This document shows, piece by piece, positions 1 through 30,706 of a stretch of 64,000 nucleotides of DNA. Numbering within the stretch: position 1 is the stretch's first letter; each line of letters begins with the position of its first letter. The stretch is from the IMG/VR virus record IMGVR_UViG_3300014204_000162, positions 1-64,000 of that record. One strand, 5' to 3'. The notes below the pieces were generated by a model, which saw nothing but the letters and a program-made list of their open reading frames with translations, made no database searches and was not told the origin of the DNA. The translations under genes were made by a program, and so were the position numbers. Source of the stretch: a virus (Duplodnaviria; Caudoviricetes).

Positions 1-128
1 AAGTGGATACCGACTACCACAATAATTGACAGGATAAACAATAAAGCGGCATGAAAAAGGCTGATGAAGCAAGGATTAATAGTAGGAAGACATAATCAAT
101 AAGACAACCAACACAAAGGAGGGATAAG

Positions 129-953
129 TTGAACGAGTTAGCAGCAGCAAACATTATTAATCAGGACAGTACATTATTAACACCAATTGAAGTTATGTTA
201 GGGGTTGACGAGCAGGGCAGAACAACAGCAAGAAAATTATATGAGTTTTTAGGGCTTGCAGTAGGGCAATTCTCGAGATGGGGCAGAACAAATATTCTCG
301 AAAATCAATTTGCGGTAGCTGGAGAGGATTACGAGGGGTTCGACATCAATGTCGAGGGGAACATGACTAAAGATTATAAATTGTCAGCATCGTTTGCCAA
401 AAAGTTGGCAATGGGTACGCATAACGAGCGAGGGGAACAGGCTAAAAATTATTTTATTAAAGTCGAGGACAAACTTAAGCAAGTTGCAATTGATATGTCA
501 GCATTAAGCCTGGAAACGCAACTATTACTTAAATTAAGTCAGTCAATAGCCAAAAATGAACTTGAGCAGAAAAAGCTACAAACTGAGGTAAAAGAGACTA
601 AGGAAGAAGTGCAAGCCATCAAGGACATAATTATTATCAATCCCAAGGCTGAATGGCGTAGGGAAACAAACAGGATATTAAACACGATAGCTAAAGACTC
701 AGGCCAGTACAAGGAAATTAAAGAGGAAGTTTACATGGCGCTTAAAGAGCGTGGCAAATGCAGGCCAAAGACTTTAATTAGCAATTTACAAGATAGGGCA
801 ATAAAAAACGGTATGGCTCCAAGTAAGGCAGGTGATCTTAACGTCCTAGATGTGCTGGAGAATGACGCAAGACTTAGAGAGGTCTACATTCAGATAGTTA
901 AAGAAATGGCTATAAAGTACGGAGTAAAGGTTAAGCAAGAACAGGCATGCTAA
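129..953 (+). CDS. Phage antirepressor (AntA/AntB-type N-terminus, coiled-coil C-terminus)
   Basis: TARKLYEFLGL..FSRW...NILEN.FA..GEDY and 'FAKKLAM...RGEQAKNYFIKVE' are typical of AntA/AntB antirepressors; SD GGAGG upstream. Confidence 0.8.
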   Translation: MNELAAANIINQDSTLLTPIEVMLGVDEQGRTTARKLYEFLGLAVGQFSRWGRTNILENQFAVAGEDYEGFDINVEGNMTKDYKLSASFAKKLAMGTHNERGEQAKNYFIKVEDKLKQVAIDMSALSLETQLLLKLSQSIAKNELEQKKLQTEVKETKEEVQAIKDIIIINPKAEWRRETNRILNTIAKDSGQYKEIKEEVYMALKERGKCRPKTLISNLQDRAIKNGMAPSKAGDLNVLDVLENDARLREVYIQIVKEMAIKYGVKVKQEQAC

Positions 954-1015
954 AAACAATCAAGCAGCTAGAGCAGAGGAGAGCTAGGGAAATAATGGGA
1001 AAGGAGGTGAAAAAG

Positions 1016-1231
1016 ATGGAGGATATGAAAAAAGAGTGTATTAACCAGGGAGTGGAAGTCCCGGATCAGTACACATTGAGAAATAAACAATTAAAAGACA
1101 TCGAGACTGAAATTTATAAACTGTTTGATGAAAATGAAGTTACTTTTTTAGAGTATCAAAAGATTATTTCATCGATAAGTTTCAGCCTGAGAGAAGCAAG
1201 TGTTTTTACACTTAGTAAACTGAATAAATAG
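1016..1231 (+). CDS. Hypothetical phage protein (71 aa); start moved to ATG 1016
   Basis: AAGGAGGTG SD directly upstream of ATG 1016, in frame with ORF 947..1231. Confidence 0.6.
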   Translation: MEDMKKECINQGVEVPDQYTLRNKQLKDIETEIYKLFDENEVTFLEYQKIISSISFSLREASVFTLSKLNK

Positions 1232-1232
1232 C

Positions 1233-1412
1233 TTACTTTTTAGATTGTTCTTCAATTAATTGATTGTAGACTTCAATGTAACGCTTGTAGTAATTGGCAG
1301 TTAAAGCTTTTATATCATCAGCTTTGCATTCGTTATACATGTTGTATTTACTTAAAATGCCAATGGCAACGTCATTGAAATGTTCATGATTTATTTTAGT
1401 AATTTTGTCCAT
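1233..1412 (-). CDS. Small antisense-oriented hypothetical protein (MDKITKINHEHF...)
   Basis: Minus-strand SD GGGAGG (1421-1426) correctly spaced from ATG at 1412. Confidence 0.65.
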   Translation of the reverse strand: MDKITKINHEHFNDVAIGILSKYNMYNECKADDIKALTANYYKRYIEVYNQLIEEQSKK

Positions 1413-1676
1413 AATATGCACCTCCCTTCAAACAAATTTTACCACCAATGGGAGGACAAGCAAATGGGAAAGGAGGTGAAAAACACGATACATTCTATCA
1501 TTAATCATGTTACCTTGTACGGTTGGGAATGGTTCGTAGAGATGTGGATACCAAAGCGTATCGGCAGTATCAACGCCGGTTACGGCAGCAGACACAGCAG
1601 GATAGACAGGTTGTTATCTCTAGGGCATCGGTGGCGGGGAGACGTCTTATAAAAAATATAAGGAGGAATATATAAA

Positions 1677-2339
1677 ATGGCAAGTTCAAAAGTGAAGGAA
1701 GTAATTGAAATACCGGCAATAAATATTAAAGAGGTAAATTTGACAGTGGTTGGAGACTCAAGTCTTATCGTTCATAGGTTTGATGATAAGAGCAGGAGAC
1801 AGATACTTGAAAAGCAAATGAAAAAGGCTACTTCAAAAGCTAAACAGCATGAAATAAAAAATCCAGTTTTGGATTTTATCAACAGCATGTACTGGTTAGA
1901 GGGTAAGCCAGATGAAGAAGATTGCAAGACCCCGGAGGATGCAGAAAAGGCATTTAAAAAGGCAATAGAAAATGGCGCAAGATTCGGTTTCCCTTCGATA
2001 GCTTTTAAATCAGCGGCAGTATCAGCGGGTTATCGGTCAGGTATAACAAAAGATAAAGTTTCATCTTATGGAGCATTTCATATTGATAGTGAATTCGCAG
2101 AAATACAAGGTGTACCAGAAATAAGAGAAGATATGGTACGCATTATGGGTACAAGCGCTGACATAAGGTACAGAGGTGAATTCAAAAGGTGGAAAACGAT
2201 TTTTAGTGTTAAGTATGATGCTGGAATGTTCAGTCTTGAACAGGTAATAAATCTATTTAACCGTGGCGGTTTTAATTGTGGCATAGGTGAATGGAGACCT
2301 GAAAAAGGCGGCGAGCATGGTAAATTCCACATTGAATAA
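1677..2339 (+). CDS. Cas7/RAMP-like RNA-binding protein (candidate Vipr-type effector)
   Basis: N-terminal beta strand 'VNLTVVGDSSLIVHRF', central 'FGFPSIAFKSAAVSAG', and C-terminal glycine-rich loop 'GGFNCGIGEWRPEKGGEHGKFHI' resembling the RAMP G-loop; directly followed by a GGY-NN array; strong SD. Confidence 0.75.
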   Translation: MASSKVKEVIEIPAINIKEVNLTVVGDSSLIVHRFDDKSRRQILEKQMKKATSKAKQHEIKNPVLDFINSMYWLEGKPDEEDCKTPEDAEKAFKKAIENGARFGFPSIAFKSAAVSAGYRSGITKDKVSSYGAFHIDSEFAEIQGVPEIREDMVRIMGTSADIRYRGEFKRWKTIFSVKYDAGMFSLEQVINLFNRGGFNCGIGEWRPEKGGEHGKFHIE

Positions 2340-2364
2340 TTAATATAAGGTACATGTTGGTTTT

Positions 2365-2547
2365 GGCAGGCAAGGCGCGGCGGGGTTTGGTGTGTTCGGG
2401 TCTGGTGTGGTCAGGTACGGCAGGCTAGGCGGGGTCCGGCAAGGTTTGTTGTTGTGAGGTAAGACATGGTGTGGCAGGCGTGGCGAGGTGAGGTACGGTA
2501 TGGTGCGGTGCGGTTTGGTTTGGCATGGCGGGGTATGGCAGGCATGG
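2365..2547 (+). ncRNA. GGY-NN pentamer array (putative guide RNA locus), three units of 10, 10 and 12 pentamers delimited by GGCA tetramers
   Basis: GGCA at 2365-68, 2419-22, 2473-76 and 2537-40; strict 5-nt register between them; 28 of 32 pentamers begin GGT or GGC; GC-rich island in AT-rich DNA. RNA function is inferred. Confidence 0.8.
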
Positions 2548-2565
2548 AGTAAAGGGGGTGAAAAA

Positions 2566-3081
2566 ATGATTTACCAATGGAAAACGGGTTTTAATGTTAA
2601 GGACATTGACGCACAAAGAACAGGTGAATACTTTGATAGCATTGAAAAAAGGGATGGTCATGTTAACCCAAAAACAATTATAGACGAAGCAAAAGACGAA
2701 AAAGCTTTATTACATAGTTGTTTTGAATGGAATAATAACGTAGCGGCTGAAAAGTATAGGGTTGCACAGGCAAGAAACATAATAGGCAACATAATAACCG
2801 TACAGGTAAAAGAGTCGCCCAAAGAAACTCTATACGCTAAAGCAGGAGTTAAGGAAGAACCAACTCAAGTAAGCTCAAGGGCATTTGTAAACGTTAAAAA
2901 TGCAGAGGAAAAGAAGATTTATGTTTCAATTGCAACTGCATTGAATGACGATACTATGCATGACAATTTATTGGAAGAAGCAAAACAAGAACTCATAAAC
3001 TTTAAAAACAAATATTCAAAACTAAGAGAATTTGCAGAGCTATTCAGCGAGATTGACAAGACACTTGGAAAAGTAAGCTGA
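2566..3081 (+). CDS. Conserved phage hypothetical protein directly downstream of the array; start at ATG 2566
   Basis: SD GGGGGTG before ATG 2566; motif 'LHSCFEWNNNVAAEKYRVAQARNII'. The upstream extension in the ORF track is translated array sequence. Confidence 0.75.
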   Translation: MIYQWKTGFNVKDIDAQRTGEYFDSIEKRDGHVNPKTIIDEAKDEKALLHSCFEWNNNVAAEKYRVAQARNIIGNIITVQVKESPKETLYAKAGVKEEPTQVSSRAFVNVKNAEEKKIYVSIATALNDDTMHDNLLEEAKQELINFKNKYSKLREFAELFSEIDKTLGKVS

Positions 3082-3192
3082 GGAGGTAACTATTTTTGAG
3101 CCTTAAGCAACTAAGGGCATATATAAACTTCTGCATGAGCAATGGACACGAAGCTACATGGACTGGCCTGAAAATATGGAGGAGGAGTATGC

Positions 3193-3408
3193 GTGTATAA
3201 ATGGTTAAAATCACTGTTCAAGAGAAAAGGAGGAATTACTGTGAAGGGTAAAAAAGTTGATTATACCAGGACTTGTGTTGAGGAGAGAATCGGACGCCAG
3301 CTATCAGATGAGCAGTACCGGAGGGCGGTTGAGGCATCGTATAAAGAAGATGAGAAATGCCGGAACTTGCAGGAGCGTATTAATACGATTGCGAGGTGCA
3401 CGAGATGA
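3193..3408 (+). CDS. Hypothetical protein
   Basis: ORF with SD GGAGGAGG; operon-like packing. Confidence 0.5.
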   Translation: MYKWLKSLFKRKGGITVKGKKVDYTRTCVEERIGRQLSDEQYRRAVEASYKEDEKCRNLQERINTIARCTR

Positions 3409-3590
3409 TGAGCATAAAAGTCGGCAGCAAGGTTTTGGCTAAATCGCCAGATGATGCAACACCTCACGGCAGGAGAAAAGTGGTTAAAAGCGGTATCGTG
3501 TTAAAAGTTTATGACAGGTTTGTACTTGTACAGTTTCCACAGCGTAAGGAATGTTTCTTTCTAAGTGATCTGGAGGAGGTAGCGGATTGA
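3405..3590 (+). CDS. Hypothetical protein
   Basis: ATGA overlap with the previous gene; overlaps the next gene. Confidence 0.5.
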   Translation: MMSIKVGSKVLAKSPDDATPHGRRKVVKSGIVLKVYDRFVLVQFPQRKECFFLSDLEEVAD

Positions 3591-4369
3591 AAAAGTATTA
3601 TTTCAGCAAAGAGAAATTTAAGGAGAGCGGTGATGGGGCCCTATTGATGGGCGGAACAGATGATGGCGAGGAAGTAGTTTTCAATGGCACTAGGTTTGGC
3701 AGAGCAGTTATACATGGCGATGTAATTAATAAGGAATGGTGTATTGAAAAAGGCAACAGAGAGTTCAAAGTTGGTGACAAGGTACGTATCCGGCAGTGGG
3801 ACGACATGGTGAAGGAGTTCGGGTTAAGGTCACCTACGTATATAAACTGCAATGGAACTTTCACAGGAGATATGAAATATCTTTGCGGTAAAGAAATAAT
3901 AATAAGGAAAATTGATGAGGATGGTTGCATTCAAAACATTGATGGTTTCAATATTGCGACTGACATGCTCGAACATATCGAAAAAAACGAACTGGAACCA
4001 CAACCTAAAGGGTTTAGTACAGCCTTTATGATGCAGCAGCTTAGTAACTGCAGGGACAAGGTATTCAAACGCACGACTGACGACCAGACGATGAAAATAG
4101 GTAGAAATGAGAGCTTTGAGTTTCAACCTGGTTATAAAAGACTAAGCCCCGATGATAGATGGGTTGAGGTATCGCAAGAGAAAGAAGTGACTTTTATAGA
4201 AGCTGTCAAGGCGTTTGATAAAGGGGAAACCATTGCCTGCAAAAATAATGGATTGGAATGTATATACTCCCTTAAAATTGCAAATGGGAATTATATGCAT
4301 GATCATAATGGATACTCAATTAGTTCTGCTGAAATACTAATGGGCCGATGGTTTATAAAAAATGATTAA
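3587..4369 (+). CDS. Hypothetical phage protein (modular; contains 'FKVGDKVRIR' SH3-like motif)
   Basis: 260-aa ORF with SD GGAGG, coupled to neighbours. Confidence 0.65.
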   Translation: MKKYYFSKEKFKESGDGALLMGGTDDGEEVVFNGTRFGRAVIHGDVINKEWCIEKGNREFKVGDKVRIRQWDDMVKEFGLRSPTYINCNGTFTGDMKYLCGKEIIIRKIDEDGCIQNIDGFNIATDMLEHIEKNELEPQPKGFSTAFMMQQLSNCRDKVFKRTTDDQTMKIGRNESFEFQPGYKRLSPDDRWVEVSQEKEVTFIEAVKAFDKGETIACKNNGLECIYSLKIANGNYMHDHNGYSISSAEILMGRWFIKND

Positions 4370-4544
4370 CATTGATAAAGAAAATATTCTGCTCCACGAA
4401 AAAGACATATTAACGCTCAACATTGAGAAAAGGGCGCTACAAAAGAAAATTGAGAAGATTGACAGAGAAATTGAGAATATAAGAGGTTACAACCGAGAGA
4501 TGAAGGGTAGGCAGACGATGAGCGACAAACCTCTGGAAGATTAG
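4362..4544 (+). CDS. Hypothetical coiled-coil protein
   Basis: Overlapping start; heptad-like charged sequence. Confidence 0.45.
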   Translation: MINIDKENILLHEKDILTLNIEKRALQKKIEKIDREIENIRGYNREMKGRQTMSDKPLED

Positions 4545-4590
4545 GCATAGGCTGTAAAGTATTGCATACCTTTAGGGGTGCAGAAATGGA

Positions 4591-5181
4591 GTGAATTTAA
4601 TGAATAAGGGTTTTAAATCATTGATAGAAACAACAGTAAAGGGATTAAGGGAAAAGACTGATTTTACAGGCAGATGGTGTGAAAACTTTACAGAGGAATG
4701 TATTGATAAGCTTAAAGATTACGCAGGAAAAGGAACGGATTGCGGTAAAAAATGTGAATATTGTGATAAGTTCAAGTGGATTATAAATAGGGCAAAGCAT
4801 TATGGTGAAAAGTTAAATCTTAATTGGGAAGATATACTTGATTCATGGGAAAAGGATAGACGATATTGGTATTTGAATTATTACCAAGAATCCAATCAAC
4901 CCGAGATTAAAGGCGATAAAGTTAAAGTATTTGAATCCGTTGAAGATATGCTTAAAAGCATTGGAGAAAGGAAATTCCGTTGCCCATCATGCGGTGGCAT
5001 TACAACAGATCCATATAAATGTAATAGCGGTATTAAAATAGGTAAGGGTAAAAATACTAAAGTATGTGACTGGAAAGTTTATGGGTTATTTGGTGATTTA
5101 GGTAAAGGTATTTATGTATATTGCAAAGATAAATTAAAAGGACAGACAATATTTATACCTATATCTTGGGAAGAAAAGTAG
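4591..5181 (+). CDS. Hypothetical Cys-rich phage protein
   Basis: CxxxCxxC and CxxC motifs; 196-aa ORF. Confidence 0.6.
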   Translation: MNLMNKGFKSLIETTVKGLREKTDFTGRWCENFTEECIDKLKDYAGKGTDCGKKCEYCDKFKWIINRAKHYGEKLNLNWEDILDSWEKDRRYWYLNYYQESNQPEIKGDKVKVFESVEDMLKSIGERKFRCPSCGGITTDPYKCNSGIKIGKGKNTKVCDWKVYGLFGDLGKGIYVYCKDKLKGQTIFIPISWEEK

Positions 5182-5318
5182 TACACATTTCAAAGTTTAA
5201 CCGGAGATGTCATAAAATTATGAGAATAAACATAAAAAAAGGGCTTATAAAAGCCCGATAATAAAAAACCCACTGCCATTATAACACGGCAGAAACGAAT
5301 TTAAAAGGAGGAAAGTAA

Positions 5319-7367
5319 TTGTCAAAAGTTATCATTCTTAAACAACTAAAGCTAAAGAACTTTAAGGGCATAAAAGAGTTTGCTCTCAACACTGGAGGAT
5401 ACGACATAAATGTCTATGGCAATAACGGTACCGGCAAAACAACACTGTTTGATGGATTCTTATGGTTGCTATTCGGCAAAGACAGTGCAGATTTAAGTAA
5501 GTTTGATGTACAACCACTTGACAGCCAAAACAACGTTATCCACATGCTTGATACTGAGGTTGAGGGCGCATTAAGCATAGACAACAAGAATATGACATTT
5601 AAAAAGGTGCTGAAAGAAAAATGGGTAAAAAAACGTGGTGAAGTTAATGCAGAACTAAAAGGAACAGAAACATCATACTATATCGACGAAGTGCCAATGA
5701 AAGAAGGTGAGTATAAGCAACAGGTAAGCAACATTACAGGCGGTGAGGATATATTCAAGCTTATAACAAATCCTATGTACTTCAGCACAGTCTTGAAATG
5801 GCAGGATAGGCGTAAGATTGTTACTCAGATAACAGGCGATATATCGGATGAACAGGTTATTAATTACAAGGATGAGTTAAAACCGCTGGCAAAACTGCTA
5901 CATGACACCGACATTGAAAAACTGAAAATAAGCATTTCCGCAAAGTTAAAGAAGCTTAAAAAGGATAAAGAGGATATCCCGGCAAGGGTGGATGAACTCA
6001 ACATGTCCATAAAGGATATTGACTTTGACGCCCTGGATACTCAAAAGCGCAGCATTATGTTTGGAATGAACAACATCGACGACCAATTAGCAGATAGCAG
6101 CAAAGTTGATGAAGCGGCCCTACAAGGCAAAAAGAAGCTGTATGAGCTGCAAAGCAAACTGCTGGTATTAAAACAGAGCATTGACAGCGAAGCTATAAAA
6201 CCACTTGAAGAATATAAAAAGCAAATTGCAACAGAGGAAAAGAATTTCTATACCGTTCAATCAGCAATGGACAAGATCAATTATGAAATTCAAAGCAAGG
6301 AGGTTGAAGTCTCCAGGATTCAAAAGTTGAACGATGACCTAAGGGACAAATGGAAGGTTGAGAACAGTAAAACTTTTGAAATGCCAGAAGATTCACTTGT
6401 GTGTCCTACTTGCAAAAGACCCTTTGATGAAGACGATATTGATGCCAAGCGTCAGGAAATGGAGGGAAACTTCAATCTTCGTAAAGCGGATATTTTAAAA
6501 GGCATAAATGCAGACGGTAAGGCTAACAAAGAGAAAATAGACAAGTTAAATGCTGAGGTAGCAGAGCTGCAAAAGCGATATAAGGAAATTGACAAGGAAC
6601 TAAATAATATAGCCGATAAGAAGATTGCTCTCCAGGATGGCATTGATAATTTTAAGGTGGATATAGACTACAGCTCCAATTCTGAGTATGCAGCAATCCA
6701 GGATGGAATAAAAGCTATCGAAGCTAAATCAGATAAGAAAGACGACAATGAGTTATTGCAGGTTCAGCAGTTGAAATCAAAGAAGGCTGAACTTGAAAAA
6801 GAACTGGAAACAATCAATAATCAACTCGCCTATAAAGAAACCAATGAAAGTGCTAAAAAGCGTATCAAAGAACTACAAGAGCAAGAAAAAAACCTTGCGC
6901 AGCAGATAGCAGATATTGAAAAGACAGAATATCTCACAGAGCAATTTACAAAGGCAAAAGTTGAACTACTGGAATCTAGTATAAACAGCAAGTTTAAATA
7001 CGTAAGATTCCGCATGTTTAAGAATCAGGTAAACGGGGGCATAGAGGAAGATTGTGAGCCGCTTATAAAAGGTGTGCCTTTTAACACAAACCTTAACAGC
7101 GGGGCTAAAACCAACGCGGGAATCGACATTATAAATACGCTATGCAATTACTATCAGATCAATGCACCTGTATTCCTGGATAATTGTGAGTCAGTCACAG
7201 AAATAATACCCACTCAGGGACAGATCATAAGATTAATAGTGCCAACACCATATGAACGATTAGACTCTACAACAAAACAAGCATGGATAGATAAATACAA
7301 AGATGGGGCTGAGGCCGCTTATTACAAGAGTATTAATACTTTAAGAATAGAAAGGGTGGATGAATAA
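5319..7367 (+). CDS. SMC/SbcC-like AAA ATPase of the phage recombination module
   Basis: Walker A GNNGTGKTT, long coiled coil with central CPTC zinc hook, C-terminal signature 'LNSGAK' and 'VFLDNCES'. Confidence 0.85.
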   Translation: MSKVIILKQLKLKNFKGIKEFALNTGGYDINVYGNNGTGKTTLFDGFLWLLFGKDSADLSKFDVQPLDSQNNVIHMLDTEVEGALSIDNKNMTFKKVLKEKWVKKRGEVNAELKGTETSYYIDEVPMKEGEYKQQVSNITGGEDIFKLITNPMYFSTVLKWQDRRKIVTQITGDISDEQVINYKDELKPLAKLLHDTDIEKLKISISAKLKKLKKDKEDIPARVDELNMSIKDIDFDALDTQKRSIMFGMNNIDDQLADSSKVDEAALQGKKKLYELQSKLLVLKQSIDSEAIKPLEEYKKQIATEEKNFYTVQSAMDKINYEIQSKEVEVSRIQKLNDDLRDKWKVENSKTFEMPEDSLVCPTCKRPFDEDDIDAKRQEMEGNFNLRKADILKGINADGKANKEKIDKLNAEVAELQKRYKEIDKELNNIADKKIALQDGIDNFKVDIDYSSNSEYAAIQDGIKAIEAKSDKKDDNELLQVQQLKSKKAELEKELETINNQLAYKETNESAKKRIKELQEQEKNLAQQIADIEKTEYLTEQFTKAKVELLESSINSKFKYVRFRMFKNQVNGGIEEDCEPLIKGVPFNTNLNSGAKTNAGIDIINTLCNYYQINAPVFLDNCESVTEIIPTQGQIIRLIVPTPYERLDSTTKQAWIDKYKDGAEAAYYKSINTLRIERVDE

Positions 7368-8305
7368 TGGCAAATGTAAATAAGCAAGAAACTGCAACAG
7401 TAGCAAAAACTATACAGGAGAAAAGTATAACTGATGAGGTATGGACAAGGATAAATTCTCTGCAGGAAAAAGGAGAACTCCAACTTCCTAAAAACTATAG
7501 CGCCGCAAATGCTCTTAAAAGTGCATGGCTGATATTACAGGAGGTAGAAAACAGAGAGCACAAGCCGGTACTCCAGGCTTGCAGCAGAGTTAGTATTTGC
7601 AATGCTTTACTTGATATGACAATTCAAGGGTTAACCCCTGCAAAGAAACAATGCTACTTTGTAGCATTTGGTAACAAACTACAGCTTATGCGTAGCTACA
7701 TGGGCGATATTGCCGTTACAAAGCGTATTAAAGGCGTTAAAGATGTTAAACCTTATTGCTTATTCGAGGGTGACCAACTTGATACTGAATATAACGTTGA
7801 TACAGCAGTATTAAAAGTAACCAAATATGTTCCTGATTTTAAAAATATAGACATAGCTAAAATAACCGGTGCTTTTATGGTTGTAGTTGGTGAAAACGGG
7901 CCTCTGCATACTGAAATAATGACTATGGCACAGATTAAAAGAGCATGGGCACAGGGTGCAGCAAAAGGCAATTCAGGAGCACATCAGAATTTTACCGAAG
8001 AAATGGCAAAAAAAACAGTTATACATAGAGGGTGCAAGGCTTTTATTAACACGTCAGACGATAGTGACCTACTCACAGATTCATACAATAGAAGTCTTTC
8101 AGAGGATGACGAAAACATCGTACAGGCCGATTATGAAGTATCAGGGGAAATAAAAGAAAATGCTAACGTAACACCCATTGATATAAAAGCTGATAGCAAG
8201 CCTACTGAATCAGAGCCTGTAAGTGGGGCTGCAAAATCAGATAAACAGCAGCAAAACAAGCAACCAGATAGCCAGCAAATGGCAATGGAACAACCTGAAT
8301 TCTGA
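7367..8305 (+). CDS. recT: RecT-family single-strand annealing recombinase
   Basis: 'SICNALLDMTIQGLTPAKKQCYFVAFG..LQLMRSYMG' and 'EEMAKKTVI' RecT motifs; acidic tail. Confidence 0.85.
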   Translation: MANVNKQETATVAKTIQEKSITDEVWTRINSLQEKGELQLPKNYSAANALKSAWLILQEVENREHKPVLQACSRVSICNALLDMTIQGLTPAKKQCYFVAFGNKLQLMRSYMGDIAVTKRIKGVKDVKPYCLFEGDQLDTEYNVDTAVLKVTKYVPDFKNIDIAKITGAFMVVVGENGPLHTEIMTMAQIKRAWAQGAAKGNSGAHQNFTEEMAKKTVIHRGCKAFINTSDDSDLLTDSYNRSLSEDDENIVQADYEVSGEIKENANVTPIDIKADSKPTESEPVSGAAKSDKQQQNKQPDSQQMAMEQPEF

Positions 8306-9015
8306 TGCGACTAAAGGTTTTAGGTTCCGGAAGCAAAGGCAATTGCTATGTGCTGCAAGGGGAGAAGGAAACCCTTCTCCTTGAGGGGGGGATTAATTAC
8401 AAAGAGATTTTAAAAGGATTGGATTTCAATATATCAAATGTCAGTTGCCTAATATCGCATGAGCATAAAGATCATTCAAAGGCGTTGCAAGAATTGCTTA
8501 ATAACGGTATAGACGTTTACACAGGCATGGAAACGGCAAAGGGGCAAGTACACTATAGACTCAAATTTATAAAAGCAGGGGAGCAATTCAACATGAATGA
8601 ATTTATAATATTGCCCTTTGACCTGCAACATGATGTGCCAAACTTAGGGTTTCTTATTCAGCATCCGGAAATAGGCAAGTTAATTTACCTTACTGACACT
8701 TACTATTGCAAATACAAATTTAACAGCTTAAATTGCATCATGATTGAGTGCAACTACAGCAAAGAGATACTCGATGAGAACTTGTACAGTGGGAACCTTA
8801 TCCCGGTATTGCGAGACAGGATAGTTGAAAGCCACTTTTCCCTTGAAAATGTAAAGGAGTTTTTAAAGGCAAATGACCTATCGCAAGTCAAGAACATAGT
8901 TCTACTGCATTTGAGTGACGGCAACAGCAACGCAGAGCAGTTTAAGCAAGATATAGAGGCATTGACAGGCATACCAACATATATAGCTGTAAAAGGCTTA
9001 GAGATTGAGTTATAG
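8305..9015 (+). CDS. Metallo-beta-lactamase-fold hydrolase (phage exonuclease partner of RecT)
   Basis: LGSGSKGNCY, SHEHKDH, HD, TDT, HLS motifs. Confidence 0.85.
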   Translation: MRLKVLGSGSKGNCYVLQGEKETLLLEGGINYKEILKGLDFNISNVSCLISHEHKDHSKALQELLNNGIDVYTGMETAKGQVHYRLKFIKAGEQFNMNEFIILPFDLQHDVPNLGFLIQHPEIGKLIYLTDTYYCKYKFNSLNCIMIECNYSKEILDENLYSGNLIPVLRDRIVESHFSLENVKEFLKANDLSQVKNIVLLHLSDGNSNAEQFKQDIEALTGIPTYIAVKGLEIEL

Positions 9016-9027
9016 GAGGTAAAAATA

Positions 9028-9309
9028 ATGTGGATTAGAAGCCAGAACAAAATAGACCTTATAGATATAACAGGCGAAAGATTCTATATACGTAATCAAT
9101 GTGTTTGGATTGATTTTCTTGATGGTAGTGAAGACGGTTGTCTAAAGTTAGGCATGTATAACTCACACGAACGAGCATTACAGGTACTTGATGAGATACA
9201 GAATCAGTTAACCAGTATATCTCATATACAAGCAAGTCAAGCAGACACTTCTGGTGGATGGCTTACAACTGAACACAGTGAAGTCATTTATCAAATGCCA
9301 GCAGAATAG
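9028..9309 (+). CDS. Hypothetical phage protein
   Basis: 'MWIRSQNK' start common in Firmicutes phages; SD GGAGG. Confidence 0.6.
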   Translation: MWIRSQNKIDLIDITGERFYIRNQCVWIDFLDGSEDGCLKLGMYNSHERALQVLDEIQNQLTSISHIQASQADTSGGWLTTEHSEVIYQMPAE

Positions 9310-9320
9310 GAGGGGTTAAT

Positions 9321-9545
9321 ATGAGTATAAGCCGCAAGCAAATTAATATTGTTGGTGATGGTCAAGACATTACAGTTTATGTATGGGAAGATAAAAACCC
9401 TGACTTTGAAGAAGATAGATTTTCTATAAGCATTGAAACCGACGACGACGCAGGAATTTCTGAATTTACGGTTGATGATGCCGGAAAAATTATAAAAGGC
9501 TTACAAGAGGCAATTGACTTTATAGAGAGCAATAAGGAGGCGTAG
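9321..9545 (+). CDS. Hypothetical acidic protein
   Basis: SD GGAGGGG; ORF. Confidence 0.55.
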   Translation: MSISRKQINIVGDGQDITVYVWEDKNPDFEEDRFSISIETDDDAGISEFTVDDAGKIIKGLQEAIDFIESNKEA

Positions 9546-9547
9546 GC

Positions 9548-9952
9548 GTGAGAGATATAAAGTTCAGAGGTAAGAGAATAGACACTCATGAGTGGGTGTA
9601 TGGGTACTATTCAAAAAGTGTGGAAAACAAAAGCTATATTTGTACGGACTTTTCATATAGAGATCATGTGATGCCATTCATAACTTTATATGAAGTTATC
9701 CCTGAGACAGTAGGGCCATATATAAGCCTAGACGATAAAAATGGCAAAGAGATATACAAAGGTGATATTGTAAATTGCAGTTTTGAAAATCGTGGAATAG
9801 GTGTAATCGGTTTTTCCCTCAATAATCAACAGACAATGATATATAAAAATTGTAGTTGCGACATGCCTATATGCGATTTGGATTACTTAATTGCTTCATT
9901 TTGTGAAGTTATAGGTAACATCCATGACAACCAGGACTTGCTAAAAAAATAG
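9548..9952 (+). CDS. YopX-family protein
   Basis: 'MRDIKFRGKRID..EWVYG', 'DKNGKEIYKGDIV', 'EVIGNIHDN'. Confidence 0.85.
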   Translation: MRDIKFRGKRIDTHEWVYGYYSKSVENKSYICTDFSYRDHVMPFITLYEVIPETVGPYISLDDKNGKEIYKGDIVNCSFENRGIGVIGFSLNNQQTMIYKNCSCDMPICDLDYLIASFCEVIGNIHDNQDLLKK

Positions 9953-10038
9953 CCCCCATAGGGGCATAGAAAAATACACATATCTATTTTACCACATTTG
10001 ATGGATAACAACCACCCATGTGGTAGTAAAGGGGGATT

Positions 10039-10311
10039 ATGAAGATTAAAAATTATGGAGCATTGATTATAATAGCCGTTTTTCTCTTTATTGTTATGAT
10101 CATTTACTCATTCAAGCATAAATATTCATGCAGGATCGTTGATACAACGATTGTGACTGTGAGAAAAAGTGATACCCTCTGGAGCCTGGCGAGGAAGATA
10201 CAGACAAAGAAAGATATACGGGAAGTAGTGGCAGATATAAAGGAGATAAACGGCATTACACCAGCAATCTATGAGGGGCAAAAGATAAAGATACCGGAAT
10301 ATGACAAGTGA
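10039..10311 (+). CDS. Membrane-anchored LysM protein (YneA-like architecture)
   Basis: N-terminal hydrophobic helix plus LysM 'VTVRKSDTLWSLA...IKEINGI...IYEGQKIKIP'. Confidence 0.8.
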   Translation: MKIKNYGALIIIAVFLFIVMIIYSFKHKYSCRIVDTTIVTVRKSDTLWSLARKIQTKKDIREVVADIKEINGITPAIYEGQKIKIPEYDK

Positions 10312-10371
10312 TATAAAAAATATGAAAGGATACCCACTCTATGAGGGGTTAAGGTTTAGGAGGATTTTTCT

Positions 10372-10617
10372 ATGAGATTGAATGAAACAGTAGAAATGAT
10401 GAATAGTGAGGACTACAAAGAAAGGTTTAAAGCTGAGTATTTACAGTTAAAGATTAGGATGATAGGGTTGAGTGCTATGCTTAAAAAATATAAGTCTGGT
10501 GAACTTAACTTTACACCATCTTGTAGTTATGATTTGCTTAACGGGCAATTTAAGGCTATGGATATGTATGCTTCCTATCTGGAAGAACGTGCAAAAATTG
10601 AAAACATTGAGTTGTAG
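10372..10617 (+). CDS. Conserved phage hypothetical protein
   Basis: 'M.SEDYKERFKAEY.QLKIR' motif; SD GGAGG. Confidence 0.7.
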   Translation: MRLNETVEMMNSEDYKERFKAEYLQLKIRMIGLSAMLKKYKSGELNFTPSCSYDLLNGQFKAMDMYASYLEERAKIENIEL

Positions 10618-10664
10618 GTTGATGCCGCATTTCAAAGTTATTATGATGCAAGAATGGAGGCATA

Positions 10665-11498
10665 ATGGAACTTTATCATGATCATTTCCAAAATTACAAA
10701 CGATATGACATACCAAAAGCACAGTTAATAATTGCTGATATACCCTACAACATAGGAGAAAATGCATATGCCAGTAGTCCGCAGTGGTATCAAGGCGGTG
10801 ACAATAAAAACGGTGAGAGTGAACTGGCAGGCAAAACATTCTTTGATACAGATAAAGACTTTAGAATAGCTGAATTTATGCATTTTGTCAGTACAATGCT
10901 CAAAAAGGAGCCAAAAGAACCGGGAAAAGCAGGATGCATGATAGTATTTTGCGAATTTGAACAGCAATTTATGCTCATACAGAAAGCTAAAGAATACGGG
11001 TTCAATCACTATATAAATCTTGTTTTCAAGAAAAATTACTCAGCTCAAGTATTAAAGGCAAACATGAAAATAGTTGGAAATTGTGAGTATGCAGTGCTTC
11101 TATACAGGGATAAATTACCTAAATTCAATAATGATGGGAAAATGGTGTTCAACTGCATGGATTATGTGAGAGATACTGCTACACCCAAAATACATCCCAC
11201 GCAAAAGAGTATAGAGGTTATAAAAAAACTTATTATGATTTTTACAGACATTGAAGATGTAGTAATAGATCCCTGTGCCGGGAGTGGGGTGACTTTGCTT
11301 GCCGCCGAAACATTAGGCCGGAAATCGTATGGTTTTGAAATCAAAAAAGAATATGTTGAAGCATTTAATTCCCAGCTGGCACAGAATGTGCAAATTTCAA
11401 TCTATCAAAACAAAATAGAGCAAAAGCGGTTAAACAATATTAAAATCCAATCTAGCCTTTATTCACCTGAAGAAGGCAGAAAGGAAGCAGGTGAGTAA
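10665..11498 (+). CDS. Site-specific DNA amino-methyltransferase (N6-A/N4-C, beta class)
   Basis: Catalytic ADIPYN, then 'HPTQKS' and 'DPCAGSG' SAM-binding motif. Confidence 0.85.
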   Translation: MELYHDHFQNYKRYDIPKAQLIIADIPYNIGENAYASSPQWYQGGDNKNGESELAGKTFFDTDKDFRIAEFMHFVSTMLKKEPKEPGKAGCMIVFCEFEQQFMLIQKAKEYGFNHYINLVFKKNYSAQVLKANMKIVGNCEYAVLLYRDKLPKFNNDGKMVFNCMDYVRDTATPKIHPTQKSIEVIKKLIMIFTDIEDVVIDPCAGSGVTLLAAETLGRKSYGFEIKKEYVEAFNSQLAQNVQISIYQNKIEQKRLNNIKIQSSLYSPEEGRKEAGE

Positions 11499-11738
11499 AT
11501 GAACTATGAAAGGCTATGGTACAAACTGAAAGACGCAGCTATCAGAAGTACAGACACATCGCTTGTAAAAACCATGGACAGGCTAGAAATTGATATGGTG
11601 CAGCGTGATGGTGTCACTGAAGTAAGGTTAGGGGAGTTAACGGTTGTTGACAGGGTAGAAGCTCTGAATACTTATTTAAATGAGTTTAGAAAGGGTATTG
11701 AGCAATACAAGAAAGCAAGCAGACTAAGCAGGTGGTAA
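11499..11738 (+). CDS. Hypothetical protein
   Basis: Coupled ORF with SD. Confidence 0.5.
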   Translation: MNYERLWYKLKDAAIRSTDTSLVKTMDRLEIDMVQRDGVTEVRLGELTVVDRVEALNTYLNEFRKGIEQYKKASRLSRW

Positions 11739-11787
11739 ATGCGGAGCGGCTTATAACCGCTCTTGTAAAGGCAGGTGATAAATAGGC

Positions 11788-11997
11788 ATGAACGAGCTAA
11801 AGGATTTAACTATGGAAGAAAAGAGACAGACAATCATGATTCAGATGGAACTGCTAAAAGACATGCTGATGTCTACTGGTTTAGCTATCGGCTTTGATAA
11901 GACGAATAATCGGCTCTTGTTTTTAGACAGAGAATTATATATCACAGCCGGTAAGACCGAAGGGTTCGGAGTCAGCATCGAAGAGCTAAGTTATTGA
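11788..11997 (+). CDS. Hypothetical protein
   Basis: SD GGCAGGTGA; ORF. Confidence 0.5.
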   Translation: MNELKDLTMEEKRQTIMIQMELLKDMLMSTGLAIGFDKTNNRLLFLDRELYITAGKTEGFGVSIEELSY

Positions 11998-12031
11998 ACA
12001 TACAAGCAATAAAGGCAGGTGATGTAATTGT

Positions 12032-19722: not shown

Positions 19723-21357
19723 ATGCGGCATAAAAGGAAGGTGAAGAATCTGGAATATAAATATAAAGTCTTATATCTCTTCTGCGGTATTGGTGGAGGA
19801 GCGTTAGGATTTCAACAGGCTAAAGAGGAATATAAGGGTATACATGGACAATTTGAGACAATATGCGGAATAGATTGTGATCCAGAGGCATGTAAGGATT
19901 TTGAGAGTATTACGGGTTCAAGAGCAGTACGAATGGATCTGTTTGATAGACAGCAATACAAAGCCTACCATGGAGAAGAACCTCCTGCAGATTGGCATGA
20001 AGTTACACATCTGGACATAAGAGAAGCTTGCAAAGGAATTGCTCCAGATGTGATATTTACATCACCACCCTGTAAGGGATTCAGTGGTTTACTGTCGGAG
20101 AAAAATGCAAAGAGTGAAAAGTATCAAGCATTAAATCAGTTGGTTATTAGAGGTTTATTCCTCACTTTGGAGGCTTTTAGGGATGATCTACCAGCATTGA
20201 TATTGATGGAGAATGTACCGAGGATAAAGACACGTGGGAAGGCTTTATTATACCAGGTTAAGACAATGCTTATGAGTTATGGATATCAATTTTCAGAAGG
20301 ATTCCATGATTGTGGAAAAATCGGGGGCCTTGCGCAACATAGAAAAAGGTATTTATTGATATGCAGAAATCCAAAGAAGATTCCAGGGTTTATGTATCAA
20401 CCACCAATACAGAAAGTGAAAGCAATAGGTGAAATTTTAGGACTGTTACCAATGCCAGATGATGAGAAGGCAGGCCCTATGCATCGGCTTCCAAAACTCC
20501 AATGGAAAACATGGATAAGACTAGCCCTCATTCCAGCGGGTGGAGATTGGCGGGATTTAGAAAAAGAATGTTATGCAAATATATATCAAGTGGCAAGCTT
20601 CAATAAGCCAAGTGCTGCAGTAACCGGAGCAATAAGGCCTAATAATGGTGCAATATCAATAGCAGATCCAAGATTAGATAAAGTACAAGGATACGCTAAT
20701 AAATTTAAGGTAGTCAAATGGAATGAGCCATCCGATACGATTACCGGAAGTAGAATAGGTTCAGGGGCTTCTATGTTAGCTGATCCAAGACTTAATGAAA
20801 GAAAGAAAAGGTATCCAGGACTATATAAAATCATTCCATGGAATGATACTTCCAGTACAATAATCGGGCAAACAGATTTACAATGTGGAGCATTAAGTGT
20901 TGCAGATCCAAGATTAAATTGTAAACCTAGAAATGGCACATTAGGTGTAATGAATTGGAATCAACCGGGTAAAACGGTAGTAGGTAATGCGGATATTGGA
21001 AAGGGATGTGCAGCTGTTGCAGACCCGAGAATACCCAAAGAAAGTGAAAGCGGCGTGTTTATAATCGAAGCGCTTGATGGCACCTGGCATAGACCATTGA
21101 CTACTTTGGAGCTTGCAGTTCTCCAGGGGTTCCCGACAAAGTTTTCTGACGGTAATCCGTTAAAGTTTGCCGGTAATTCAGATGCACACTGGAGGGAACG
21201 GATAGGAAATGCAGTACCGGTTGCTGCAGCACAGGCCATAGCAGAGACAATATTGAGGGCAATGCTTCCGGTATTAAAGCAAGAAATAGTCTTAGGATGG
21301 ACACCAATATGGGTACAACCAACAAGCTTAAAAATAATTAAAGAGATTGTAAGTTAG
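19723..21357 (+). CDS. Large DNA (cytosine-5) methyltransferase with tandemly repeated variable region
   Basis: Motifs LFCGIGG (I), SPPCKGFS (IV), ENVP (VI), QHRKR (VIII), LTTLELAVLQGFP (IX), IGNAVP (X). Confidence 0.85.
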   Translation: MRHKRKVKNLEYKYKVLYLFCGIGGGALGFQQAKEEYKGIHGQFETICGIDCDPEACKDFESITGSRAVRMDLFDRQQYKAYHGEEPPADWHEVTHLDIREACKGIAPDVIFTSPPCKGFSGLLSEKNAKSEKYQALNQLVIRGLFLTLEAFRDDLPALILMENVPRIKTRGKALLYQVKTMLMSYGYQFSEGFHDCGKIGGLAQHRKRYLLICRNPKKIPGFMYQPPIQKVKAIGEILGLLPMPDDEKAGPMHRLPKLQWKTWIRLALIPAGGDWRDLEKECYANIYQVASFNKPSAAVTGAIRPNNGAISIADPRLDKVQGYANKFKVVKWNEPSDTITGSRIGSGASMLADPRLNERKKRYPGLYKIIPWNDTSSTIIGQTDLQCGALSVADPRLNCKPRNGTLGVMNWNQPGKTVVGNADIGKGCAAVADPRIPKESESGVFIIEALDGTWHRPLTTLELAVLQGFPTKFSDGNPLKFAGNSDAHWRERIGNAVPVAAAQAIAETILRAMLPVLKQEIVLGWTPIWVQPTSLKIIKEIVS

Positions 21358-22817: not shown

Positions 22818-23735
22818 TTGAAATTCGTTGATATGTTTTGTGGAATAGGCACTATAAGAATGGGTATGGAGCAGGCAGGTCATGAGTGTGTCTACTCAAT
22901 AGAATGGGATAAACACAAAAGGGGGATTTACAATGCTATCTTTGGAAAATATCCAGAAGGACAAGATATTCGGGCAGTACGAGCAAGTGACATTTCTCAA
23001 TCAGATTGTTGGACATTTGGCGCACCCTGCCAAGACTTCAGTATTGCAGGAACAAGAGCAGGACTTGAGGGAGACAAAAGCTCCCTTGTCAGAGAAGTAT
23101 TTAGACTTGTCAGGGAGACTGAAGAAGAATATAGACCCAAATACCTGCTCTATGAAAATGTTAAAGGAATGCTATCTTCAAATAAAGGATTTGACTACCT
23201 CGAAATACTGCTTGAAATGGACTCACTCGGGTACGATATCGAATGGCAATTGCTTAACTCAAAAAACTACGGAGTACCTCAAAATAGAGAAAGAATGTTC
23301 ACTATCGGACATCTTAGAGGAACAAGTACCAGAAAAATATTTCCTATCGTCTCCACAGTGGGTTGCGAGAATCCAGGCGTCTCTATTACGGCACGTGGAT
23401 ATGGGAGCCAAAGGAATGGGACTTATGTTGTTGAAAACCCCATAAACCTGAGGTTATTAATACCTGGCGCAGATGCTCAAAGGGTATATGATGGCAGGAT
23501 GCTTGGTAGAACATTAAAAGGTGAAAGTGGTGGTCAAGGCGGCAAGATGGGGCTTTATCTTATAGATGACAGGATAAGGCAGCTTACACCAAGGGAAACG
23601 TGGAGGATGCAAGGTATACCCGATTGTATAACAGATAAAGTTTTACAAGCTGGCATAAGTGACAATCAATTATATAGGGGTGCAGGTGATGCTTGCACAG
23701 TTAACGTAATATATGAGATTGCAAAGCGACTTTAG
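22818..23735 (+). CDS. DNA (cytosine-5) methyltransferase
   Basis: DMFCGIG (I), GAPCQDFS (IV), ENVKG (VI), PQNRER (VIII), LTPRE..RMQG (IX); atypical motif X 'YRGAGDAC'. Confidence 0.9.
   Translation: MKFVDMFCGIGTIRMGMEQAGHECVYSIEWDKHKRGIYNAIFGKYPEGQDIRAVRASDISQSDCWTFGAPCQDFSIAGTRAGLEGDKSSLVREVFRLVRETEEEYRPKYLLYENVKGMLSSNKGFDYLEILLEMDSLGYDIEWQLLNSKNYGVPQNRERMFTIGHLRGTSTRKIFPIVSTVGCENPGVSITARGYGSQRNGTYVVENPINLRLLIPGADAQRVYDGRMLGRTLKGESGGQGGKMGLYLIDDRIRQLTPRETWRMQGIPDCITDKVLQAGISDNQLYRGAGDACTVNVIYEIAKRL
22933..23445 (+). CDS. Nested alternative-frame ORF, M.EcoHK31I beta-polypeptide-like
   Basis: 170-aa ORF entirely inside the MTase gene; GGGGG SD-like sequence 7 nt before ATG; 'KWTHSGTISNG...ECSLSDILEEQVPEKYFLS' motif. 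Confidence 0.55.
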   Translation: MLSLENIQKDKIFGQYEQVTFLNQIVGHLAHPAKTSVLQEQEQDLRETKAPLSEKYLDLSGRLKKNIDPNTCSMKMLKECYLQIKDLTTSKYCLKWTHSGTISNGNCLTQKTTEYLKIEKECSLSDILEEQVPEKYFLSSPQWVARIQASLLRHVDMGAKGMGLMLLKTP

Positions 23736-30471: not shown

Positions 30472-30706
30472 GTGGTGGTGATGGAATAGGTAGACATTAA
30501 TCAGACATAGTGAGAACTCTGCTGGTAAGACGTGACTGTCCTTGTGGTGAAATTCCAAAAGGTACGTTGACAGTCTGTTGCGGTAAGGTAATGGTATTAA
30601 TTCCATTTAATTGCCTGAAGAGAAGGGCAGAAATGCCAGAACTAAAACGAGGCGTCAGTACACGCCTATCCTATGCTATGTATGGTGCGAATTCATACCC
30701 ACTACA
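30472..30706 (+). ncRNA. tRNA-like RNA (acceptor stem, D-like and T-like arms) with ~170-nt structured insert in place of the anticodon arm
   Basis: GTGGTGG/CCACTAC 7-bp stem; TG-ATGGAATAGGTAGACA D-arm-like sequence; GTATG-G-TGCGAAT-T-CATAC T arm; internal hairpins. Confidence 0.6.

What the first reader, a model, noticed from the sequence alone, without database searches (positions are those of the whole stretch)
2365..2547. Array decodes into three discrete guide-like units
Seen: GGCA tetramers (2365, 2419, 2473, 2537) break the 5-nt phase and delimit units of 10, 10 and 12 pentamers. Unit 1 (2369-2418) NN = AA GC GG TT GT CG CT GT CA AC. Unit 2 (2423-2472) NN = TA GG CC AA TT GT GA AA AT GT. 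Unit 3 (2477-2536) NN = GT GA GA AC AT GC GC TT TT AT GG AT. Four pentamers deviate from GGY (GTT at 2394, GTT at 2448, TGT at 2453, GAC at 2463), three of them in unit 2, which may be decaying. Constant 3-nt plus variable 2-nt positions are not what slippage in a microsatellite would produce. Inference: each unit is a guide of 20-24 informative bases, GGCA marks a processing or boundary site, and the target is gapped (e.g. NNx NNx, which could skip codon wobble positions). I found no in-frame match by eye in this window's ORFs, but that check was not exhaustive.
Basis: partly seen in the sequence, partly recalled or inferred. Interest (0 to 1): 0.9.

Follow-up and report, generated by a model that had tools for sequence, protein, structure and literature searches.

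The report
Phage VIPR guide-RNA array (staggered)
The G-rich 5-base repeat between two phage genes is an array of three gapped guide RNAs of the recently described VIPR system, and one guide exactly matches, codon by codon, the DNA polymerase gene of a large group of rival phages.

Summary
Window 2365-2547 holds 32 GGYNN pentamers in three units of 10, 10 and 12, separated by GGCA phase slips. Nothing else like it occurs in the 78.6-kb phage genome.

The upstream gene (1677-2339) folds as a minimal Cas7-like RAMP (pLDDT 94.7; Csm3 Z 10.5). It is homologous to the experimentally studied Vipr of phage SUSP1 (hhalign 98.2%).

The trio of gene A, array and gene B recurs in all 13 related loci examined, from metagenomic phages to Gordonia and Mycobacterium phages. 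GGY is fixed and NN is near-random across them.

Unit 2, read as NNxNNx, has at least 114 exact matches in IMG/VR. All are in frame on codons Y-G-P-K-F-V-E-N-I-V of a family A DNA polymerase, with the skipped base at the wobble position. Control patterns gave 1 and 0 hits. The phage itself has no such gene and no self-target.

Units 1 and 3 have no identified target.

This is VIPR, described in 2026 preprints (10.64898/2026.04.26.720920), so it is a new member of a known kind. RNA expression and processing at GGCA could not be tested.

The parts
1677..2339 (+). vipr gene: 220-aa minimal RAMP (Cas7-like) protein with G-loop C-G-I-G-E-W-R-P near the C terminus
   Evidence: AF2 pLDDT 94.7. Foldseek top hits are all Csm3, Cmr or Cas7. 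VIA gives Z 10.5 to Csm3 9g9a_D. hhalign to SUSP1 Vipr gives 98.2%, E 5.5e-14. The family has 6865 members and no Pfam domain.
2340..2364 (+). short AT-rich leader between the vipr stop codon and the first boundary motif
   Evidence: Sequence. No significant promoter or terminator was found.
2365..2368 (+). boundary 1: GGCA (a 4-nt unit inside GGCAGGC) that shifts the 5-nt phase by one base
   Evidence: The same punctuation occurs every 45-65 nt in related arrays.
2369..2418 (+). guide unit 1: 10 pentamers, NN = AA GC GG TT GT CG CT GT CA AC. No target found.
   Evidence: There were 0 exact 1-nt-skip hits in viral, genome and metagenome collections.
2419..2422 (+). boundary 2: GGCA
2423..2472 (+). 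guide unit 2: 10 pentamers, NN = TA GG CC AA TT GT GA AA AT GT. It targets codons YGPKFVENIV of the family A DNA polymerase of other phages.
   Evidence: At least 114 exact hits, all in frame in a roughly 650-aa ORF matching PF00476 and phrog_17. It matches 20/20 in three named Ruminococcus and Streptococcus phages. Controls gave 1 and 0 hits.
2473..2476 (+). boundary 3: GGCA
2477..2536 (+). guide unit 3: 12 pentamers, NN = GT GA GA AC AT GC GC TT TT AT GG AT. No convincing target.
   Evidence: There were 0 exact hits. The best partial matches, 17-19 of 24, fall at one site of a replication gene in the guide-2 target phages.
2537..2551 (+). boundary 4 (GGCAGGC) plus a two-pentamer remnant that closes the array
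2552..2560 (+). ribosome-binding site (AAAGGGGGT) of gene B
   Evidence: Sequence.
2566..3081 (+). accessory (vap-like) gene B: 171 aa, phrog_15946, invariant H50, F53, W55, A60, A61, Y64 and R65. The N-terminal part is weakly winged-helix-like and the C terminus is a helical hairpin.
   Evidence: A homologue is present in all 13 related loci. It shows no similarity to SUSP1 vap1.

Best explanation
Window 1677-3081 is a VIPR (Viral Interference Programmable Repeat) locus made of a vipr gene, a tail-less 'staggered' array of three vrRNA guides, and an accessory gene. By analogy with the studied SUSP1 system, the array is transcribed with the operon. One Vipr protomer binds each GGY and exposes the following NN dinucleotide. 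The filament then pairs the NN dinucleotides with double-stranded DNA while skipping every third target base, which blocks transcription of the target. Guide 2 is aimed at ten codons (Y-G-P-K-F-V-E-N-I-V) of the family A DNA polymerase carried by a large group of Firmicutes-type phages and prophages. Because the skipped base is the wobble position, synonymous changes cannot give escape. The carrier phage has no such polymerase, so the guide acts against competitors. Shown here: the anatomy, the RAMP fold, homology to SUSP1 Vipr, conserved synteny, variable NN positions, exact in-frame targets with controls, and no self-target. Inferred from the literature: transcription, cutting at GGCA|G, filament assembly and silencing.
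For: The periodic array is unique in the genome. Gene A is a confident RAMP fold. Its C-terminal 65 residues, including the G-loop CG[IV]G[DE]WRP, align to SUSP1 Vipr at 98.2% probability, E 5.5e-14. D177, W178 and R179 of that loop bind the GG of each repeat in the cryo-EM structure (10.64898/2026.04.26.720927).

The A-array-B synteny holds in 13 of 13 related loci, including actinophages. Pentamer composition across arrays is G 97%, G 81%, Y 96%, with N4 and N5 entropy of 1.84 and 1.94 bits.

All are in frame in a DNA polymerase gene. Reversed NN order gave 1 hit and a 2-nt skip gave 0. The flanking codons are conserved but do not match the flanking array letters, so the match ends at the GGCA boundaries.

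Forty-two guides from related arrays hit the same phage loci at 80% NN or better 93 times with skip 1, against 28, 18 and 19 times with skips 0, 2 and 3. This includes an 18/18 match. There is no self-target, with best scores of 14/20 and 16/24, and no polymerase homologue in the carrier genome.

The published description matches: 9-16 YNNGG repeats, a 1-nt skip at the wobble position, and staggered arrays with 1-nt overlap.
Against: No RNA data exist for this phage, so transcription, processing at GGCA and loading onto Vipr are unshown. Guides 1 and 3 have no exact target in three large collections. They also have none within 3 mismatches in five complete guide-2 target phages. The 114 hits are homologous genes, so they amount to one conserved site rather than 114 independent events. 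The array has no 3' tail or pseudoknot like the studied type II vrRNAs. Gene B is unrelated to SUSP1 vap1. The staggered array form has not been confirmed by RNA sequencing in the paper.
Confidence: 0.93

Rival explanations
1. The locus is a VIPR locus, but it acts by destroying the target or blocking replication rather than by silencing transcription. Gene B would be the effector or recruiter, as proposed for the nuclease-bearing VIPR types.
For: Gene B belongs to a different family from the DNA-binding vap1 of SUSP1. It is strictly syntenic in all 13 loci. The paper reports that types III-V carry nucleases or helicases.
Against: The gene B model shows no nuclease or helicase fold. Only weak winged-helix-like rows and a helical hairpin appear. 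It has no Pfam or PADLOC-type catalytic domain. Its invariant residues (H50, F53, W55, Y64, R65) do not form a recognised catalytic motif.
Confidence: 0.1
2. The array is a protein-binding RNA platform or sponge, such as a TRAP-like triplet-repeat RNA or an assembly scaffold. The NN positions would be mere spacers carrying no targeting information.
For: A fixed triplet plus a 2-nt spacer resembles the TRAP binding sites of Bacillus, and units of 10-12 repeats fit ring-shaped binders (my own first idea, from general knowledge). The RNA shows no significant structure (z -1.47).
Against: Spacers carrying no information would not give at least 114 exact in-frame matches to one gene when controls give 0-1. 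Guides of related arrays would not show 3- to 5-fold enrichment at skip 1. The partner protein is a RAMP homologous to a proven guide-binding protein.
Confidence: 0.03
3. The array is a DNA-level element, such as a microsatellite produced by slippage, a G-quadruplex-prone tract, replication-origin iterons or a cluster of Chi-like sites.
For: The strand is G-rich (49% G) and GG runs spaced by 3 nt could form two-tetrad quadruplexes. The element lies in the early replication and recombination region.
Against: Slippage gives identical units, whereas here the NN positions are near-random and GGY is fixed. The element keeps its strand and its place beside the RAMP gene across phages of 37% to about 65% GC. 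The NN positions carry a readable target.
Confidence: 0.01

Closest known systems
VIPR type II system of Escherichia phage SUSP1 (Vipr agp039, vap1 agp038, four vrRNAs; 10.64898/2026.04.26.720920 and 10.64898/2026.04.26.720927)
   Same: The protein is a homologous small RAMP with the same G-loop motif. The guides are GGY/NN pentamer repeats of 10-12 units. The target rule is NNx with the skip at the wobble position. The locus has two genes and sits in a phage. The targets are competing mobile elements, and there is no self-target.
   Different: SUSP1 vrRNAs are separate transcripts of about 100 nt, each ending in a conserved 3' tail with a pseudoknot (seen in L129). Here three guides abut with only GGCA(GGC) between them and no tail. 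The accessory gene is unrelated. The two proteins are too far apart for tblastn. The target here is a DNA polymerase gene of other phages, not a satellite's recombinase.
[quoted passage not shown]
   Same: Adjacent guides share one base at the junction. GGCAG, the last pentamer of one guide, overlaps GGCNN, the first pentamer of the next. This gives the 4-nt GGCA phase slip seen at 2365, 2419, 2473 and 2537.
   Different: Only the figure legend could be read, so identity of the clade and of the junction motif could not be checked. The paper confirmed the hammerhead-interspersed and single-guide forms by RNA sequencing, but not this form.
Cas7 backbone subunits of class 1 CRISPR effectors (Csm3, Cmr4, type VII Cas7)
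   Same: Gene A shares the RRM core, thumb and glycine-rich loop fold, and these are the best structural matches (Z 8-10.5). The protein oligomerises along a guide and flips bases at a fixed period (from the literature).
   Different: There is no CRISPR repeat-spacer array. The period is 5 nt with three bases sequestered, not 6 nt with one flipped. Guide information is non-contiguous. Sequence identity is about 10%.
TRAP (trp RNA-binding attenuation protein) binding sites of Bacillus
   Same: Both are tandem triplets separated by 2-nt spacers in an unstructured RNA.
   Different: TRAP triplets are GAG or UAG, their spacers carry no information, and the binder is a beta-sandwich ring. None of this applies here.

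Membership tests
VIPR system | Vipr protein: a small single-RRM RAMP with a thumb and a glycine-rich loop | tested here: met
   The AF2 model has pLDDT 94.7. The top Foldseek and VIA hits are almost all CRISPR RAMPs, with Csm3 at Z 10.5. The G-loop G198-G215 is invariant.
VIPR system | Sequence homology to an experimentally characterised Vipr, including the GG-binding D/E-W-R of the G-loop | tested here: met
   hhalign of the gene A profile against SUSP1 agp039 gives 98.2%, E 5.5e-14 over 65 residues. CGIGEWRP aligns with CGVGDWRP.
VIPR system | vrRNA region of 9-16 tandem YNNGG (GGY/NN) repeats next to vipr | tested here: met
   The units hold 10, 10 and 12 pentamers, starting 25 nt after the vipr stop codon. 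Related arrays most often hold 9-13 pentamers per unit.
VIPR system | GGY conserved and NN hypervariable among related loci | tested here: met
   Position frequencies are G 0.97, G 0.81, Y 0.96. N4 and N5 entropy is 1.84 and 1.94 bits over the 59 in-register units parsed from the window array and 12 related arrays.
VIPR system | Natural targets that obey the 1-nt-skip rule, with the skip at the codon wobble position | tested here: met
   Guide 2 gives at least 114 exact in-frame hits in a DNA polymerase gene, against 1 and 0 for the controls. Guides 1 and 3 have none found.
VIPR system | No self-targeting at 80% NN match or better | tested here: met
   The best 1-nt-skip scores in the 78.6-kb genome are 14/20, 14/20 and 16/24.
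VIPR system | Adjacent accessory (vap) gene with a DNA-interaction role | tested here: inconclusive
   Gene B is syntenic in 13 of 13 loci. Its fold gives only weak winged-helix-like rows at Z 6 or below. It is not similar to vap1. It could not be assigned to vap1-6 because the figures are not held.
VIPR system | vrRNAs expressed, processed and co-purifying with Vipr | not testable with these tools
   No RNA run holds this sequence. The only full holder is a landfill metagenome DNA run.
VIPR type II (SUSP1-like) | Each vrRNA ends in a conserved 3' tail with a pseudoknot, and the accessory gene is vap1 | tested here: not met
   There is no tail between units, only GGCA. The RNA fold z-score is -1.47. 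Gene B is unrelated to vap1.
CRISPR-Cas class 1 | Repeat-spacer array of direct repeats of about 24-40 nt with contiguous spacers | tested here: not met
   The array has a 5-nt period and no long direct repeat. Rfam found no CRISPR repeat family in 1-8000.

The most novel reading that the evidence does not exclude
This clade may be a mechanistically distinct VIPR form with three features. Its tail-less guides would be released by cutting at the GGCA|G junction, either by Vipr itself or by a host RNase. Its own accessory protein, the gene B family, would be shared from Clostridia-type phages to cluster A mycobacteriophages. A single guide would be aimed at an invariant polymerase motif and so silence a whole order of rival Firmicutes phages, giving a broad-spectrum rather than strain-specific weapon.
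Probability: 0.3. Interest if true: 0.55.

Novelty: new member of a known kind. Interest (0 to 1): 0.4.

Why it matters
The locus is an independent, sequence-only confirmation of the VIPR gapped code in a phage lineage far from the studied E. coli and Pseudomonas systems.

It gives a clear natural target. Ten invariant codons of a family A DNA polymerase are shared by at least 114 IMG/VR phage contigs and by deposited Ruminococcus and Streptococcus phages. This shows how wobble-skipping lets one guide cover very divergent rivals.

It also documents the tail-less staggered array form, for which the literature has no RNA data.

Finally, the same cassette sits in culturable Gordonia and Mycobacterium smegmatis phages, where the arrays are currently annotated as protein genes. 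Those phages are easy systems for experiments.

Tried and rejected
- **TRAP-like idea.** My first working idea was a TRAP-like or ring-protein RNA platform, or origin iterons. I dropped it after the literature hit and the target matches.
- **Rfam.** The E-value scan of 1-8000 found nothing at the array, only two sub-threshold hits elsewhere.
- **Megablast.** A search of 1-12000 against deposited phages gave no match.
- **Guides 1 and 3, exact.** The 1-nt-skip patterns gave 0 hits in viral, genome and metagenome collections.
- **Guides 1 and 3, near matches.** None was found within 3 mismatches in five complete guide-2 target phages. None reached 80% in the 114 target loci or in the related VIPR loci.
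- **Guide 3 sub-windows.** NN1-9 gave 2 hits, which is chance level. NN4-12 gave 16 hits, 15 of them from one hydrophobic ORF family of about 113 aa, mostly near-identical copies. These score only 18-19 of 24 overall, and I judge them one chance family.
- **RNA evidence.** No RNA holder is listed.
- **Gene B fold.** There was no Foldseek match below 1e-3, and VIA rows of Z 6 or less were dominated by a generic helical hairpin.
- **VIPR type.** Types I-VII could not be assigned because the figures and supplementary data of the paper are not held.
- **Promoters and terminators.** The scan found nothing above shuffles.
- **Target site in the polymerase.** The phmmer alignment to Taq polymerase stops at residue 510, before the target site. 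Placing the site in the helix before motif C rests on my own knowledge.

Full report
**Observation.** The stretch 2340-2565 is intergenic. It lies between a 220-aa gene (1677-2339, +) and a 171-aa gene (2566-3081, +) that has its own ribosome-binding site at 2552-2560.

From 2365 the + strand reads as GGYNN pentamers. GGCA tetramers at 2365, 2419, 2473 and 2537 shift the phase by one base.

G autocorrelation peaks at every multiple of 5. A phase-5 GG score of at least 7 of 12 occurs only here in the 64-kb window, on one strand only. Runs of four or more YNNGG units occur nowhere else in the 78.6-kb genome, which is a single virus record.

**Context and conservation.** Pfam names neither flanking gene. 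PHROGs places them in families of unknown function, phrog_4652 and phrog_15946. Rfam has nothing at the array.

Gene A belongs to a very large unannotated family, with 6865 proteins at E 0.001 or better and 2903 representatives at 50% identity.

Ten IMG/VR loci encoding relatives of gene A all carry a G-rich pentamer array on the same strand. In nine it lies directly after gene A and before a gene B homologue. In one it lies after gene B.

Deposited actinophages have it too:
- Gordonia phage Pipp, where the array is annotated as the CDS gp43.
- Gordonia phage ODay, where it is intergenic.
- Mycobacterium phage Donkeykong, where it lies upstream of gene A and is annotated as the CDS gp48.

A gene B homologue is present in all 13 loci.

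Across these arrays the pentamer positions are G 97%, G 81% (T 15%) and Y 96%. Positions 4 and 5 are close to random, with entropy of 1.84 and 1.94 bits. The GGCAGG punctuation gives units of mostly 9-13 pentamers. This is not what slippage produces.

**Literature.** A full-text search found four 2026 preprints on VIPR, Viral Interference Programmable Repeat.

The discovery paper is 10.64898/2026.04.26.720920. It describes a phage-borne minimal RAMP (Vipr), an accessory gene (vap) and vrRNAs of 9-16 YNNGG repeats. The NN dinucleotides pair with double-stranded DNA while one target base is skipped per repeat, usually the codon wobble base. Targets are competing phages, satellites and prophages. 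No self-targets reach 80% NN match. There are seven types with several array forms, among them 'staggered arrays' in which neighbouring vrRNAs overlap by 1 nt.

The structure paper is 10.64898/2026.04.26.720927. It shows one protomer per repeat, with G-loop residues D177, W178 and R179, H17 and thumb R138 holding the GGY.

**Membership tests.**

(a) Fold. An AlphaFold2 model of gene A from a 77-sequence alignment has pLDDT 94.7. Every Foldseek match with E 0.001 or better is a Cas7-type RAMP: Csm3, Cmr6, type VII Cas7 (E 9e-5, TM about 0.5); Cas7-11 follows at E about 2e-3. An independent all-against-all structural scan gives Csm3 at Z 10.5, and about the first 30 rows are CRISPR RAMPs.

(b) Homology. 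I located the SUSP1 locus in NC_028808.2. It comprises Vipr agp039, vap1 agp038 and four tailed GGYNN RNAs. The gene A profile aligns to SUSP1 Vipr with 98.2% probability, E 5.5e-14, over the C-terminal 65 residues. CGIGEWRP aligns with CGVGDWRP. Gene B is unrelated to vap1.

(c) Targets. NNx patterns were scanned in IMG/VR:
- Guide 3 gave 0 hits.
- Guide 1 gave 0 hits.

All 114 hits lie in frame in an ORF with a median length of 660 codons. That ORF is a family A DNA polymerase (PF00476, phrog_17). The hits fall on the codons Y-G-P-K-F-V-E-N-I-V, and the skipped base is the third codon position, which varies freely among hits.

Two controls were run. The same NN dinucleotides in reversed order gave 1 hit. 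The same order with a 2-nt gap gave 0 hits.

The target peptide stays conserved on both sides (…E-S | YGPKFVENIV | Q-A…). The next array letters do not match these flanks, however: CA against AG or TC upstream, and AG against CA downstream, in 114 of 114 cases. The match therefore ends at the GGCA boundaries.

Guide 2 is also 20/20 in the annotated DNA polymerase genes of three deposited phages:
- Ruminococcus phage NatCom_28274
- Streptococcus phage phi-SsuHCJ31_comEC
- Streptococcus phage phi-SgaBSJ27_rum

The carrier phage has no homologue of that polymerase. It has no self-target either, with best scores of 14/20 and 16/24.

(d) Generality. Forty-two guides parsed from the related arrays were scored on the 1.08 Mb around the guide-2 hits. 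They gave 93 matches at 80% NN or better with skip 1, against 28, 18 and 19 with skips 0, 2 and 3. The matches included an 18/18 hit on the codons EKKYKDPFS and a 22/24 hit, both in frame.

**What remains open.**

Guides 1 and 3 have no exact target in the viral, genome or metagenome collections. They also have none within three mismatches in five complete target phages.

The best partial matches of guide 3, 17-19 of 24, fall at one homologous site (V-E-[ED]-A-I-x-A-F-L) of a replication gene of about 800 aa next to the polymerase in the same phages. That hints at an unsampled variant as the target, but it is below the 80% criterion. A 9-NN sub-window of guide 3 hit one family of small hydrophobic ORFs at 18-19 of 24, which I regard as chance. 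In the discovery paper only about half of the SUSP1 vrRNAs had identifiable targets, so orphan guides are expected.

No RNA data exist for this phage. The only full holder is a landfill metagenome DNA run. Transcription, cutting at GGCA|G and loading onto Vipr are therefore inferred. The array RNA has no significant structure (z -1.47) and no 3' tail, so it is not the studied type II form. It fits the 'staggered array' form, which the paper did not verify by RNA sequencing.

Gene B folds confidently (pLDDT 90.8). It gives only weak winged-helix-like matches plus a helical hairpin. Its role is unknown, and the VIPR type could not be assigned because the figures are not held.

**Verdict.** The feature is real. 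Its remark that unit 2 is decaying is wrong.

The system was published in 2026, so this is a new member of a known kind, not a new kind. This locus adds four things:
- a well-supported natural target, namely ten invariant codons of the DNA polymerase of a broad group of Firmicutes phages;
- a clear example of the tail-less staggered array;
- an accessory-gene family distinct from vap1;
- the presence of the cassette in culturable actinophages, where the arrays are mis-annotated as genes.

Noticed in passing
L011 4614-4883 (Gordonia phage Pipp gp43); L012 3489-3875 (Mycobacterium phage Donkeykong gp48): The GGYNN arrays of these deposited phages are annotated as 'hypothetical protein' CDS. These are probably spurious ORFs lying over vrRNA arrays. 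In Donkeykong the array lies upstream of the vipr homologue, not downstream.
   Followed up: partly
L004 about 4930-4975; L004-L009 array ends (for example L005 about 5125-5145): One related array is interrupted by a non-repeat stretch of about 45 nt. Several related arrays end in a small hairpin, GGCGTGGAA(A/G)CGCC, just before the RBS of gene B. This may be a 3' cap or a processing signal, and it is absent in the window.
   Followed up: no
L002 4628-5016: This related array mostly uses GTTNN or GGTNN pentamers (G-[GT]-T), a relaxed consensus like the variant repeats mentioned in the VIPR papers.
   Followed up: no
L024 (- strand, site in the ORF at + coordinates 3018-5579), L118, L075, L125: The best partial matches of guide 3 (17-19 of 24) all fall at one homologous site, V-E-[ED]-A-I-x-A-F-L, of a replication gene of about 800 aa beside the polymerase in guide-2 target phages. 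This may be a diverged or unsampled target.
   Followed up: partly
L132-L147: Nine consecutive NN dinucleotides of guide 3 (NN4-12) exactly match a hydrophobic ORF of about 113 aa (…RSVTMAALLMGIPFTAFLAM…) found in 15 IMG/VR contigs. The first three NN dinucleotides do not match, so this is probably one chance family.
   Followed up: partly
window 5319-7367: A 682-aa SbcC/Rad50-like ATPase (phrog_77, phrog_21084) lies downstream, and an AntA-type anti-repressor lies at 129-953. The VIPR locus therefore sits in the early regulatory and recombination region of the phage.
   Followed up: no
window 20580-21030, 22933-23445, 30472-30706, 41577-44030: Other first-stage notes on this genome cover a repeat-bearing C5-methyltransferase, a nested ORF, a tRNA-shaped RNA and a large fibre gene. 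They were listed by the findings look-up and I did not examine them.
   Followed up: no
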